A program made the translations under genes and the position numbers. This document shows, one piece after another, positions 6,663 through 14,167 of a stretch of 64,000 nucleotides of DNA (positions within the stretch are counted from its first letter, which is position 1; each line of letters begins with the position of its first letter). The notes under the pieces are model-generated. The model saw only the letters and a list, made by a program, of their open reading frames with translations. It was not told the DNA's origin and did no database searches. Origin of the DNA: Octopus vulgaris (lineage: Eukaryota); the NCBI GenBank assembly GCA_951406725.2, contig OX597835.1, forward strand, positions 29,140,001 through 29,204,000, written 5' to 3'.

Positions 6663-7907
6663 GGACAGCCTATGCACACACATACACACATGCACACACA
6701 CACACACACACATACATGCATTCAGCATGTATGTATGTGTGCGCGTGTAAGAATGTATACACACACAAACATGCAGCGACATACACTGAAAAAATGATTT
6801 GTTCGCATTCATACATACTCATTTAACTCACACTATATAGATTCACATGTTCGTACATGTGTATGAAAAATGCCCAGAGATTCATGCCTCCATGTTATGT
6901 GACAGCGACACCACTCGACGGTGATGGTGGCGAATGATTATTACAGGGGACAGGAGCGGCGGCGGCGGCGGCGGCGGTGGTGGTGGTGGTGGTAATGTTG
7001 GTGAAGTCGTTACTGACGTTGGCTGCTCTGACTCATAATCACCATCATAGCATCGGTGACAAACATTCGAAAATGTACCCGTTTCATACCCGTTTTCTAA
7101 AGGTCAACTTTCAATTTTCTATATCTGCAAATGCGATCTTTGATTCAAAAGTCCAACCGAAGAACATTAACCCTTTCCAAATAATAGAACCAAGTGTTGC
7201 TTCCTTATTCGCCGGTCACCAAATATCTAAATTATATCCGGGGTGGGAAATAATTTCTTTTTTTGTTTTGTTTTATTATTCTTATTTTTTGTTTTATTTA
7301 TATTACTTTGTTATTTTGTGTGCATGTGTGTAAGTGTGTAGATTTTATCAGCAGAAAGGTCATCTTCCTAAATATTGTTGTGACCTCACACACATTCACA
7401 CCATCGTTTATATACACACACACACACGCATAGAATCGTGCACTCGCACACACACGCACACGCACACACAAACACACACAAGCACACACATGCATACATA
7501 CAACATACACGCATACGTACACAGGAGACTCATACACTATAGAAACATGAACACACACACAAGCACACATGCATAAAAACGCATAAACATGCACACACAC
7601 AGACACACACGCACAGAACAGACACATACACGCACACACACACACACATAAACATATACATGCAATCACACCCACGCATAGGCACTAAAACCAGCGTGGG
7701 AAGGACGAAGTATATATGATTTCTTAGAAGCACATGTAGGTTAGGATACGAACCTATTTACATCCGGATCTTACAAACATCTAACGGTCAATCTCAGTTC
7801 GTTTAGCCATTATTAAAGAAATAACAGCTAAACCTTCCACAAATCACGGCCTGCTTAAAAAGAAAATAAAAAGCAATAGGAAAGACATAATCATGAGTTT
7901 AGAAACA

Positions 7908-8325
7908 GATGTGGCTATGTGGGAAGAAGCTTGCATCCCAACCACACGGTTCCGGGTTCAGTTCCATTGTGGGGCACCGTGAACAAGTGTCTTCCACTAT
8001 AGCCTCGGGCCGACCAAATCCTTGTGGGTGGATTTGGTAGACGGGAACTGAAACAAGCCCATCGTATATATACACTTATATAATTTAATTATTTATTTAT
8101 GTCTGTGTGTTTTATGTCTGTGTTTGCCCCACCTCCACCCACAACATCGCTTGACAACCGATGTTGGTGCGTTTATGTACCCGAAACTTAGCGGTTCGGC
8201 AAAAGAGACTGATAGAATAAGTACTAAGCTTACAAAGAATAAGTCCTGGGTCGATTTTTTCGACTAAAGCCGGTGTTCCAGCATGGCCGCAGTCAAATGT
8301 CTGAAACGTGTTAAAAGAGTAAAAG
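7908..8325 (+). mobile_element. tRNA-derived CORE-like SINE, near full length
   Basis: Homologous to 24240-24665. Confidence 0.85.
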
Positions 8326-8679
8326 AATAAACTGGATGGTCACTACTGGAACTTTTTTGATCGTAAGTCTTTGATAGCAACACATACGTAAGCACATACA
8401 AAATACATTCATACGTTCATACATACAGACAGACACATACACCCACACACAGATCATGTGTGTATGTGTGAGTGAATATGGTAAGCAGAAGCTGTGTGGA
8501 CTGCAGCCATGCCAGAGCGCCACTTTGAGGTTTTCAGTCCAATAAATCGCGCACAGTACTTGTTCTATAGGTTGCTTTTGCTGATATGCTTCGTTACGGT
8601 GACGTAAGCAAACCAACATCGGAAATCAAGAGGTGGTGGGTGGAAACCATATTCAAAAACACACACAGAAATACATGCA

Positions 8680-9270
<591 letters not shown>

Positions 9271-9315
9271 AATGAAAGAATGGAGTCGAACGAAGATGTT
9301 AACAAAATTCCTTTA

Positions 9316-9397
9316 CTCTCGACACATGTTTCGAAGACAGCATATTTTCATTCCGAAGGAATAAAGGATGCATTATGCAATCTTCTCATCAGGAAAG
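9316..9397 (-). ncRNA. Minimal type I hammerhead ribozyme, canonical core, GUC site
   Basis: Minus strand ctttc-CTGATGA-gaaga...tcttc-GAAA-catgt-GTC-gagag; stems I and II pair; stem III is short with palindromic ACATGT. Confidence 0.85.
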
Positions 9398-9470
9398 AAA
9401 AGGAGCCTCTCTCAACAACAAGACAAACAAAAATTTCGATGATTGCCTACATGGTAACCATCGAATTTTT

Positions 9471-10105
9471 GCTAAAAAACTTTTTGGCTGCTATTTCTAG
9501 AAAGTTCAGTATGTGGCAAAGTAATTTATTTTACTAAGCTCTAATTATATAATGTAATATTTTGAATACGCCTTAAATGGTCCTTTTACATACTGAACAC
9601 TACTTGGTGAAATTGATTAATAACTAATTAATTTTACCCTCAATTATTGATATTATAATTTCTTTCTCCCTGTTCTGTTACTACGGTTCTCACAGTTATA
9701 GTATGTTTACTAGATAACTCACGTGGGTGGAAGAGGAAAGAACATGAATCTTCGCTTGTACATTTTGAATTTGCTAGTACCGGCAGTTTGAGGGTGTTTG
9801 TCTGAGGTCATACATTGCCGGACGGGTATGTTCATTCTTTTAGTGCTTTCAAACCCAAAATTAAGAAATGTTGAGCTGACGAAGGAAATGCTGAGTTTTA
9901 TTTCGGCTAATCTAGAAACGTGACGTTCTCAAATGATCTTTGTACTTGTGATATTTTACTGTTTTACCTCCATATCTTCGTGAGTTATATTTGAGTAAAC
10001 ATTATCTGGGAGAATTTTTCTTAAAGTAGTGGCTAAAAAACTTTTGGCTGCTATTTCTAGAAAGTTCAGTATGTGGCAAAGTAATTTATTTTACTAAGCC
10101 CTAAT

Positions 10106-10113
<8 letters not shown>
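9471..10113 (+). mobile_element. Non-coding Penelope-type/retrozyme-like unit with ~82-bp terminal direct repeats
   Basis: 9471-9553 is repeated at 10032-10113 (period 561 nt); internal hammerhead; ends in (TA)n. Confidence 0.7.
9871..9932 (+). ncRNA. Minimal type I hammerhead ribozyme motif (GUU site)
   Basis: ttgag-CTGACGA-a-gga...tct-a-GAAA-cgtgac-GTT-ctcaa; 5-bp stem I. Confidence 0.7.
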
Positions 10114-10150
<37 letters not shown>

Positions 10151-10166
10151 CATATATATATATATG

Positions 10167-10200
<34 letters not shown>

Positions 10201-10747
10201 TGTATGTATATTGGATTTTGGGTATATGTCTATTAGTATTTGAAATAAAGCAAATTCACCGTTTGGTCTATCTGATGTCATCCACAGTAACGATGTAATT
10301 TTCACTGGGTCTATGTTTGGAAATCCGCAGTGTTTGTTGAGTTTATAGTTGATGAAGGAAACGGAAAATGTTTCATTTATCAACTCTGTGTGTGTGTGTG
10401 TGTACACGAGAGGCTTCTTTCACAAGGCCGTAGCAGACAATATTTGCCCCAAATGCCTCACAGTGAAACTAAACCTGGAACCAAATTTCTTACGACTCAG
10501 CAACACGGCCGATAGAATAATTGCCAGCCATTAACAAAAACAAAAAGATTAAGTACCGGGGCAATCTGTTTTAGTAAAACTCTAAAAACCTTCAACGTGG
10601 TTCCTCAGCATGGCGTCACTCTCATAGCTGCAACAAGTAAAACGTGAAACAATGTATGCTTCTTGTGCCGCGGGTGAACAACTATGACGCAACTCACTGA
10701 AGCAACTCATGATAAATGGGAGGAAATGTGTAAAGTCATAATGTAAT

Positions 10748-11180
10748 GGAAGATCCTAGAAGGACTTGTCCCAAACTTTGGCATCGAGAGTTACACAAAT
10801 ACTAGAACTGGGCGCCACTGAACTGGGTGCCAAAGAGTCCAAATTTGCCATCGAGATGTAGGACAAGATACTGTGATAGCCTGGGCTTCAGAGGCCTACA
10901 GCTCTTCAATATCCTCCCGAAGAACCTGAGAGACCTGCATGGGGTGGATGCGGATGTCTTTAAAATAAAACTGGATCTCTTCCTGTCAGGTGTCCCAGAT
11001 GAACCAACTTCACGGCAGGAGGTGCAGATGAGGGCAGCTGCATCGAACTCTCCCATGCACCAAATGGCAATTGCTAAAAGGCATTCGTGAAGTAAAACAC
11101 CAAATGGCGGTGCCCCAGCATGGCCACAGCTCGTGAGCAGAAACTAGATAAAATGAAATAAAATAAAATAAATAAAAAAA
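10748..11180 (+). mobile_element. CR1-like LINE 3' end with 3'UTR and (AAAAT)n tail
   Basis: WKILEGLVPN...GLQLFNILPKNLRDL..FKIKLDLFLSGVPDEP, followed by a hairpin 3'UTR and tail. Confidence 0.85.
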
Positions 11181-11218
11181 TAATGTTCATGGGAGATGTA
11201 ACACCGAAGCTGGAGCTC

Positions 11219-11311
11219 ATTTTCTTCTTCTTTTTCTTCTTCTTCTTCTTCTTCTTCTTCTTCTTCTTCTTCTTCTTCTTCTTCTTCTTCTTCTTCTTCT
11301 TCTTTTTCTTT
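11219..11311. repeat. (TTC)n microsatellite
   Basis: Direct reading. Confidence 0.95.
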
Positions 11312-11558
11312 CGGGCGTTTGACGATGTCAATCACCCTCATGTGTGTTTATGTCAATGATGAAAATAGCCAGATAAACATTCTCTTCGTATACAATATTA
11401 TAAGGTCCCAAAAGAACACAAACCAAGATATGACTGTGTGTATATATATCTATGTGTGTGAGAGTGTGTGTGCGTGTAATATATATAACCTATATGTATG
11501 TATACATGTGCATGCAGGTGTGCGTGTGTCAATGTGAAAGTGTGAGTGTGTGTGAGTG

Positions 11559-11621
<63 letters not shown>

Positions 11622-11625
<4 letters not shown>

Positions 11626-11915
11626 CGCAATGGCCCAGTGGTTAGGCAGTGGACTCGCGGTCGTAGGATCGTGGTTTCGATTCCCAGACCGGACGTTGTG
11701 AGTGTTTATTGAGCAAAAACACCTAAAAGCTCCACGAGACTCCGGCAGGGGGTGGTGATCCCTGCTATACTCTTTCACTACTCTTTCTCTCACTCTTTCT
11801 TCTGTTGGCCTGCTCGCTTAGCCAGCGAGGTGGCGTCGTTCGAAGGCTAAAACAATGCGAAGCATTGTGACCAGCGATGTGTAGCGACATCTGATGGTCT
11901 GGTCAGTCACGTGAT

Positions 11916-11922
<7 letters not shown>
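11622..11922 (+). mobile_element. tRNA-derived SINE, third family
   Basis: A-box TGGCCCAGTGG, B-box GGTTTCGATTCCC; homologous to 51878-52190 and 55045-55320. Confidence 0.85.
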
Positions 11923-12256
<334 letters not shown>

Positions 12257-14167
12257 ATATACAGAGAGAGAGAAAGAAAAACAGATACAAAGAGCGAGTG
12301 AGAGAAAGAGATAGAACGATAGATATACATATATTGATAAATACGAACCTAACCCATGTGATTGCAGAAGGAGATTCTTAGACGCTCCGTTATCTCTTGG
12401 CCTAACTACACAAATATGATTGCGTCTAATTTTCTTAAAGAGGAAATTTACAAGATGCTTCGCAATCACATGGCCTCAGGTTCAGTCTTACTGCGTGGCA
12501 CACGAGTGAAGTGTCTTCTACAAAAGACACGAGCTAACCAAAACCTTGTGAGTGGATTTGCTAGATGGAAACTGAATGTAGCCTGTCGCATATATATATA
12601 TATTCCTTTATTCTTTTACTTGTTTCACTCATTTGACTGCGGCCATGCTGGAGCACCACCTTTAGTCGAAAAATCGACCCCAGGACTTGTTCTTTCTAAG
12701 CCTAGTACTTACTTTATCAGACTTTTTTGTGGAACCGCTAAGGTACGGGGATGTAAGCATACCAACATCGGTTGTCAAGCGATGGTAGAGAACAAACACA
12801 AACAGACATATATACATACATACATACATACACACACATACATACATACATACATACATACATACATACATACATACATACATACATACATACATACATA
12901 CATACATACATACATACATACATGGAATAAACGAACTTTAAGTTAGTTAAAATATGTTTGAGACATATTTTAACTTCTTAATGCGAATTCACTGCTTAGC
13001 TTGTTGGAAAAAATTCTCATATGGTAAAAGGTGTAAAAACACCATAACTGATTACTGCTTTCCTATAGCGGACCCCAGATGCATTTCTGGTTCTGTAGCC
13101 TTCTTCTGTAGGAGATACTGAAGAGAGACTGCTCTGGGCTTATTCTAAAGCCCTTGTTGTATCCTTGAACACTCAATATCTGTGACTGAGTTGCCCTAGC
13201 GCACCACCTGATCGGAGTAAATACTGCAGAATCAGCGCTAGGCAGTGATGAGGAATAAATGAAATTTAACTTGGTTAAAATTTATTTGTATCATATTTTA
13301 AGTTCGAAAGATAAATTCATTGCAGTTACCGTGGAGGGAAAATTCTAGCTTATGGTAAAATGCATAAAAAGAGGAGGAGGCAGATATAAAAGTTAAAGGC
13401 AGATATGAAAATTCTATTAGAGCTTGGTATGACAACAGTTATGTTTCCGCTCACAGAGAACATACAATGCCCAACTCGTATTCTACGAGTTCAAAATTTA
13501 GATATTTTTACCTGGTTTACACATTATAATCTTAACATAAATCACGAGCGCTCCAAACACCCAGTACCCAATCAGCGTCCGTTGTGAGTTCACAAAGCCC
13601 CCGAAGGGCACTATCATCTAGGTTAGAAGACACTGGATTATACAAATGAAATTGAACATTGTGAGGCTCCTGGATGTCTGGTTACCAGTAACAGAAGGAC
13701 ATTCACACGCACGTGAGCACAGCTACATACACACACACACACAAACACAAAAACTCACACACAGAAACATACAATATTTATATATACATACATACATGCA
13801 AGCACACACATACGCATATATATATATATATATATATAAATATATATATATATACATATATACATATATGACAACTTAGGCAAGTGTCTTCTACTATAGC
13901 CTCGGGCCGACCAAAGCCTTGTGAATATGTTTGGTAGACAGCAACACACACATGCTTCCCCCGCCACATATATATTACTTGCAACCAACTTGCAGATGCA
14001 AGTGCTACTGGCAGTCTTATGGGGTCACCAGGAGAGAATGCGCACCGTTTCGGGGGCCTTCCTCTTAACGGTATAATTGCGCACCACCCATCCCCCACTT
14101 CACTGACATGAAACCCCACTTGCTAGATCAACAGACTATTAGACTTCATTCAATACTTTTTCTTGGC

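What the first reader, a model, noticed from the sequence alone, without database searches (positions are those of the whole stretch)
9270..10115. Two different hammerheads of opposite polarity joined head-to-head between (TA)n tracts; one sits in a 561-nt direct-repeat unit
Seen: a canonical GUC hammerhead on the minus strand (9316-9397) runs outward into the left (TA)n. An unrelated hammerhead on the plus strand (9871-9932) runs outward into the right (TA)n. The plus-strand unit is bracketed by ~82-bp direct repeats (9471-9553 and 10032-10113) and has no meaningful ORF. Established: a greater-than-unit-length copy is what reverse transcription of a circular or tandem ribozyme-processed RNA produces (retrozymes, PLE pseudo-LTRs). 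Inference: either both ends of one break in (TA)n primed cDNA from two different ribozyme RNAs, or this is an ambisense ribozyme replicon. The plus unit predicts a ~561-nt circular RNA.
Basis: partly seen in the sequence, partly recalled or inferred. Interest (0 to 1): 0.75.

Follow-up and report, generated by a model that had tools for sequence, protein, structure and literature searches.

The report
Two different Penelope-type arms joined head-to-head
The two back-to-back hammerhead ribozyme motifs belong to two unrelated repeat families, a Penelope-like retrotransposon and a non-coding tandem repeat, and their join is a one-off that likely arose when one copy landed beside the other and the DNA between was lost, though copying of two RNAs at one DNA break is not excluded.

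Summary
Observation confirmed. The left half (9266-9460, minus) is the truncated 3' end of an autonomous Hydra-like Penelope-like element (PLE): 3.2-kb unit, RT plus GIY-YIG, 398 exact ribozyme-core matches. The right half (9471-10105, plus) is 1.15 units of an ORF-less tandem hammerhead repeat (retrozyme; 145 matches; monomer mostly 562-571 nt, 561 here through a private deletion). The junction is single-copy, so this is not an ambisense replicon. This locus has one plus-strand ribozyme and cannot release a circle itself. Head-to-head arms in (TA)n are the normal anatomy of both families: 161 of 165 same-family pairs have one short-ended and one tailed arm. This pair is short/short. Four more mixed-family pairs were found among 56 other foreign junctions, against 2.5 expected if deletions simply land in neighbouring elements (P=0.24). 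Sequential insertion with deletion (0.5) therefore suffices; two RNAs at one break (0.4) stays open. No RNA evidence was obtained. The scan found the two-armed pattern before in other genomes; my searches found no mixed pairs in print or in scan notes.

The parts
9172..9265 (.). left target tract, (CA)n then (TA)n
9266..9460 (-). arm of family B: 195-nt 5'-truncated 3' end of an autonomous Hydra-like PLE, ending at the short (tail-less) start site
   Evidence: 97-99% identical copies continue upstream into GIY-YIG and RT frames; full unit of 3182 nt with a hammerhead at both ends in L267
9316..9397 (-). type I hammerhead of family B, GUC site at 9321, long stem II, short palindromic stem III
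   Evidence: cleavage not tested
9461..9470 (+). junction insert: inverted copy of about 9429-9441 of arm B, one base shorter
   Evidence: sequence; inserts of 5 nt or more occur in 26 of 128 same-family pairs
9471..10105 (+). arm of family A: 1.15 units of a non-coding tandem hammerhead repeat (monomer 9471-10031), ending at the short start site
   Evidence: monomer folds at z = -5.9 against 100 shuffles
9871..9932 (+). type I hammerhead of family A, GUU site at 9927, A.A mismatch at the base of stem II
   Evidence: cleavage not tested
10032..10117 (+). start of the second monomer (direct repeat of 9471-9557), running into (TA)n
10106..10211 (.). right target tract, (TA)n/(TATG)n

Best explanation
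The left arm is the truncated 3' end of an autonomous Penelope-like element and the right arm is 1.15 units of an unrelated non-coding hammerhead repeat; they were likely joined in two steps, the Penelope copy priming in the (TA)n beside an existing repeat copy and its 5' end being patched on after the DNA between was lost. Shown: the identity of both halves, their (TA)n targeting, the two fixed end sites of each family, the single-copy junction. Inferred: both families are copied by PLE reverse transcriptases that normally extend both cut strands on RNA of one source, one from each start site; family A is copied from an endless template (circle or uncut tandem RNA). Here arm B is read as a one-armed insertion resolved by fold-back and end-joining into the A copy.
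For: The junction occurs once in 2.8 Gb; no other locus among the 40 scored or 48 holds both halves. One-armed insertions joined to non-TA DNA are common: 55 of 105 solos. Outward-facing hammerhead arms cover about 4.5% of 315 control flanks, predicting 2.5 mixed pairs among 56 foreign junctions; 4 were seen, P=0.24. Same-family pairs are coupled, 161 of 165 short+tailed, and their arms are closer to each other than to typical copies (1.4% vs 3.6% in A, 2.2% vs 5.3% in the Hydra clade). Mixed pairs break the rule: 3 of 5 short/short, Fisher P=2e-4. Short fold-back pieces also mark arms joined to other DNA (L055, L078, L120, L169, L271; L163). B's 5' end lies in a cluster of native B ends (9 of 59 in that 20-nt bin); A's lies in no cluster. 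L214 shows a B arm cut into a decayed, stop-ridden other PLE. A third PLE-type piece sits about 100 nt away.
Against: The arms are not distinguishable in age: 6 private changes in 635 nt vs 1 in 195, P=1.0, and both are about 99% like their nearest copies. The deletion model predicts about as many same-orientation landings (3.3) as outward-facing ones, but only 1 was seen (L091) against 4. 8 of 10 arms in mixed pairs are short-ended (P about 0.055, my arithmetic, post hoc). Junction inserts are also found in ordinary two-armed insertions (26 of 128). The null is rough: an incomplete arm library, 500-nt flanks, non-random loci, and a few of the 55 solos are library-limit artefacts.
Confidence: 0.5

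Rival explanations
1. One event, two RNAs: both ends of one cut in (TA)n were extended at once, one on the Hydra-like PLE RNA and one on the retrozyme RNA, each from its short start site, and the two cDNAs were joined through a 10-nt templated patch.
For: Both arms end at exact family start sites in (TA)n and no TA lies between. Ages match within error. Four more mixed pairs, with an orientation and short-end excess that is not significant. A purified PLE protein cuts and extends both strands and is modelled as a dimer (PMC11167929).
Against: The rate of mixed pairs does not exceed the deletion null (P=0.24). Same-family arms share a source, so two-template events are at best rare. One look-alike (L414) proved to be a DNA fold-back of the flank.
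Confidence: 0.4
2. Two complete two-armed insertions lay side by side in one (TA)n cluster and a later deletion removed both inner arms; 9461-9470 would be the stub of B's second arm.
For: Neighbouring insertions are frequent: 19 of 255 flanks had a library hit within 250 nt, a few false or counted twice. Both lost arms would be the tailed ones, which fits the short+tailed rule.
Against: The break would have to fall within about 12 nt of the old B junction. The piece differs from B by one base, as a templated patch would. No route to such a deletion is visible.
Confidence: 0.08
3. An ambisense replicon with ribozymes on both strands, integrated whole.
For: Only the layout: two hammerheads of opposite polarity.
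Against: The junction is single-copy. Each half is a large separate family that pairs mostly with itself. The left half continues into a PLE gene elsewhere. The direct repeat brackets only the plus unit.
Confidence: 0.01

Closest known systems
Hydra clade of endonuclease-positive Penelope-like elements (Craig et al. 2021, PMC8557442; passages seen)
   Same: Family B and its relatives: one ORF, RT then C-terminal GIY-YIG, DKT motif, RW motif, no CCHH, CxxC and CxH around the E/N residues, canonical hammerhead in the pseudo-LTR, (TA)n targets, inverted 5' copies.
   Different: No CxCX5C linker motif in 6 of 6 frames scanned (four reach the end of the endonuclease, one most of it, one stops before it); an Asn-rich linker instead. 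Unit 3.2 kb against under 3 kb. Tail about 155-175 nt against the 30-40 bp stated for PLEs. No tree against reference Hydra proteins.
Animal non-LTR retrozymes (Cervera and de la Pena 2020, PMC7229834, passages seen; Li, Clavereau and Pollet 2026, 10.64898/2026.07.22.740005, first part and passages seen)
   Same: Family A: tandem, ORF-less, low GC (33%), type I hammerhead in each unit, compact fold, PLE-style ends.
   Different: Monomer about 565 nt against about 300. Ribozyme with a GUU site and A.A at the base of stem II. Short arrays (about 2.5 units at most seen), laid down as two-armed insertions. No circle or cleavage shown, and no parent PLE found.
PLE two-site initiation and tail (Frangieh et al. 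2024, PMC11167929, parts 1-2 of 4 read; Arkhipova et al. 2013, PMC3846280, passages seen)
   Same: Two fixed end sites per family, tail on one inverted arm only, AT-rich targets.
   Different: Here the coupling is counted (161 of 165 pairs) and mixed-family pairs are described. The 2013 paper explains head-to-head arms by self-priming on an antisense template, which cannot by itself produce a mixed pair in one event.

Membership tests
Hydra-clade PLE (family B) | Single ORF, RT followed by C-terminal GIY-YIG | tested here: met
   785-aa frame in L252 and about 900-aa frames in relatives; identified by motifs, as Pfam gave no RT or GIY-YIG hit
Hydra-clade PLE (family B) | DKG changed to DKT; RWK-type motif | tested here: met
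   SDKT in 6 of 6 frames; RIRWL in 4 of 6 (the other two frames lack the N-terminus), with L in place of K
Hydra-clade PLE (family B) | [quoted passage not shown] | tested here: met
Hydra-clade PLE (family B) | CxCX5C linker motif | tested here: not met
   0 of 6 frames; hence 'Hydra-like', not filed as a full member
Hydra-clade PLE (family B) | Hammerhead in pseudo-LTR and (TA)n insertion | tested here: met
   L267 has the ribozyme at both ends; 3' ends at TA
Hydra-clade PLE (family B) | Falls inside the Hydra clade in an RT tree | not tested
   no reference proteins were fetched
Animal non-LTR retrozyme (family A) | Tandem non-coding units, each with a type I hammerhead | tested here: met
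   two or three ribozymes in tandem in L025, L021, L015, L263; the window copy itself has only one
Animal non-LTR retrozyme (family A) | Monomer of about 150-450 nt, GC under 45% | tested here: inconclusive
   GC 33% fits; the monomer of about 565 nt is longer than the published typical size
Animal non-LTR retrozyme (family A) | Self-cleavage and circular RNA | not testable with these tools
   only contigs of uncertain kind were served; indirect: arm 5' ends do not pile up at the cleavage site and 17 of 78 arms exceed one unit
Ambisense ribozyme replicon | Fixed pairing of ribozymes on both strands of one unit | tested here: not met
   junction single-copy; halves belong to separate families

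The most novel reading that the evidence does not exclude
Mixed pairs are fossils of one cut primed on two different RNAs. A Hydra-like PLE enzyme would then copy a retrozyme RNA and its own RNA in the same event, which would name the helper of this retrozyme, argue against self-priming as the source of inverted PLE arms, and mark the short site as the first-used start site.
Probability: 0.35. Interest if true: 0.6.

Novelty: new member of a known kind. Interest (0 to 1): 0.3.

Why it matters
How PLEs make their inverted arms, and which enzymes move animal retrozymes, are open points in the papers seen (PMC8557442, PMC3846280, 10.64898/2026.07.22.740005). The near-strict short+tailed pairing gives a number that any mechanism must meet. 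Mixed pairs are the natural test of one-RNA against two-RNA copying. This locus alone cannot decide it, and its parts are known kinds of element.

Tried and rejected
Rfam at E<=1 on 7000-12500: only microsatellite-driven noise, no hammerhead family. Pfam on three ORF pieces: no RT or GIY-YIG hit. Expression: no RNA holder listed on record; contigs of four runs gave no usable circle joint, and none bridged the junction in four runs (a hole proves nothing). A direct genome-wide pattern count of mixed pairs could not be run, so the census rests on sampled loci; searches with the two natural mixed stretches found no second copy among 40 scored each. No autonomous parent of family A among the loci; L252 looked like an A/B pair but has TA tracts between the elements. 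Candidates not counted as mixed pairs: L414 (DNA fold-back of a flanking LINE end), L421 (second arm ends inside the ORF), L147 and L382 (SINE partners), L214 (decayed partner), L091 (same-orientation chimera). A 5'-end hotspot at the start of the A monomer was tested and not found (3 of 78). Snap-back copying of the tailed arm was rejected because short-ended arms often reach further 5' than the tailed arm (for example L082, L084). Minimum-free-energy folds of the two ribozymes alone are not significant (z -1.4 and -0.9). No related genome is held, so no orthologous site. Supplements of the papers were not read; those of PMC8557442 (Hydra sequences) bear on clade membership, and those of the bioRxiv preprint were not seen.

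Full report
Observation. The window lies at G000:C22:29,140,001-29,204,000 in a 2.8-Gb, microsatellite-rich genome. The minus motif is canonical (GUC) and its helices covary across 13 related sequences. The plus motif has a GUU site and an unpaired A.A at the base of stem II, shared by most close copies. Relatives pair that position and the fold covaries weakly, so it is a real but possibly weak ribozyme (inference). Neither was assayed.

The halves are two families. Searching the whole stretch gave 107 matches from 40 scored candidates; apart from the window, all cover only the right half. The left half gave 46 matches from 40 scored, 95-100% identical. Exact ribozyme-core patterns match 145 (A, right) and 398 (B, left) times. 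The 25-nt junction matches once. This removes the ambisense-replicon reading.

Family B is an autonomous PLE. Its copies continue upstream into a GIY-YIG and RT frame. L267 holds a 3182-nt unit with the ribozyme at both ends. An RT query found 142 scored matches, many in frames of about 900 aa. The motifs fit the Hydra clade as described in PMC8557442 (passages) except the CxCX5C linker, which is absent, so I call it Hydra-like.

Family A is a retrozyme-type repeat. It is ORF-less, 33% GC and tandem, with a monomer mostly of 562-571 nt; the window's 561 reflects a private 6-nt deletion. The monomer folds far better than shuffles (z -5.9). In 78 arms from loci taken in contig order, 5' ends are spread evenly with no pile-up at the cleavage site, and 17 exceed one unit. 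The template is therefore continuous across the ribozyme: a circle or an uncut tandem RNA (inference; PMC11167929 found uncut RNA to be the main substrate in vitro). The window copy has one plus ribozyme and cannot itself release a monomer.

Head-to-head arms are the rule. Among all loci fetched (a mix of best hits and first-listed pattern matches, so not a random sample), 218 head-to-head pairs were found and 168 had both ends at TA and at one of the family's two end sites; 50 were left unclassified. Of 165 same-family pairs, 161 have one short-ended and one tailed arm, 3 are short/short (one of them an inverted duplication of its flank) and 1 is tailed/tailed. One further row was an artefact (L421) and two were mixed. 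The two arms of a pair are closer to each other than to typical copies, pointing to one source RNA, though gene conversion could add to this. A tail on one arm only is already in print (PMC3846280; PMC8557442), as are two start sites and extension of both strands (PMC11167929). Earlier notes of this scan report the same pattern in other genomes.

The mixed pair. The window joins a short-ended B arm to a short-ended A arm through a 10-nt inverted copy of B sequence. Four other mixed pairs of hammerhead families turned up: L058 (short/short), L208 (short/short, partner without a close sampled relative), L428 (short/tailed) and L163 (short/tailed). Two routes compete. In the sequential route a new arm primes in the TA tract beside an old element and loses the DNA between: 55 of 105 one-armed insertions have such foreign junctions, outward-facing arms cover about 4.5% of 315 control flanks, and the expected 2.5 mixed pairs in 56 compare with 4 seen, P=0.24. 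In the single-event route two RNAs are copied at one cut: the arm ages match within wide error, same-orientation landings are fewer than predicted (1 against 3.3), and short ends dominate (8 of 10), none of it significant. Mixed pairs do escape the short+tailed coupling (P=2e-4), which both routes allow. B's 5' end looks native, so B is either the later or the simultaneous arrival. I put sequential at 0.5, single event at 0.4, later deletion at 0.08.

Novelty. The parts are new members of known kinds. Six paper searches and the passages read showed no report of mixed-family PLE pairs; one search found none in scan notes. That is not proof of absence, since the library lacks most subscription papers. 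Papers seen: PMC8557442, PMC7229834 and PMC3846280 as passages; PMC11167929 parts 1-2 of 4; 10.64898/2026.07.22.740005 part 1 of 5 and passages; the others as search listings only. Interest 0.3: a real and instructive oddity whose exciting reading is neither needed nor excluded.

Noticed in passing
window 9067-9168, minus: Tail-only piece of a third hammerhead-bearing repeat family, 96-97% like copies in L129, L412 and L210, about 100 nt left of the finding; the same microsatellite cluster was hit repeatedly.
   Followed up: partly
fetched loci overall: 437 hammerhead-bearing arms ending at TA fall into 27 sequence clusters in the loci held; the genome is rich in such families.
   Followed up: partly
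L258, L262, L265 and relatives: A young Hydra-like family with many intact 899-908-aa frames, tandem full-length copies and 1797 exact ribozyme-core matches; a good candidate for biochemistry.
   Followed up: partly
L071:849-2198 and other Hydra-like frames: Long Asn-rich linker between RT and endonuclease in place of the zinc-finger linker, recalling the Asn-rich inserts of rotifer Penelope elements (PMC3846280).
   Followed up: no
L091 about 500-1300: One arm runs from a Hydra-like tail straight into family A sequence in the same orientation: a template switch or a deletion landing in the near arm.
   Followed up: partly
L414:1900-2120 and L060:1150-2750: Inverted duplications of the flanking LINE end plus TA tract beside PLE arms, i.e. 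DNA fold-back of the target.
   Followed up: partly
L199 and L213: Same-family pairs with 208 and 225 nt of unrelated sequence captured between the arms.
   Followed up: no
L169:1-2070 (minus) and L214: [quoted passage not shown]
   Followed up: partly
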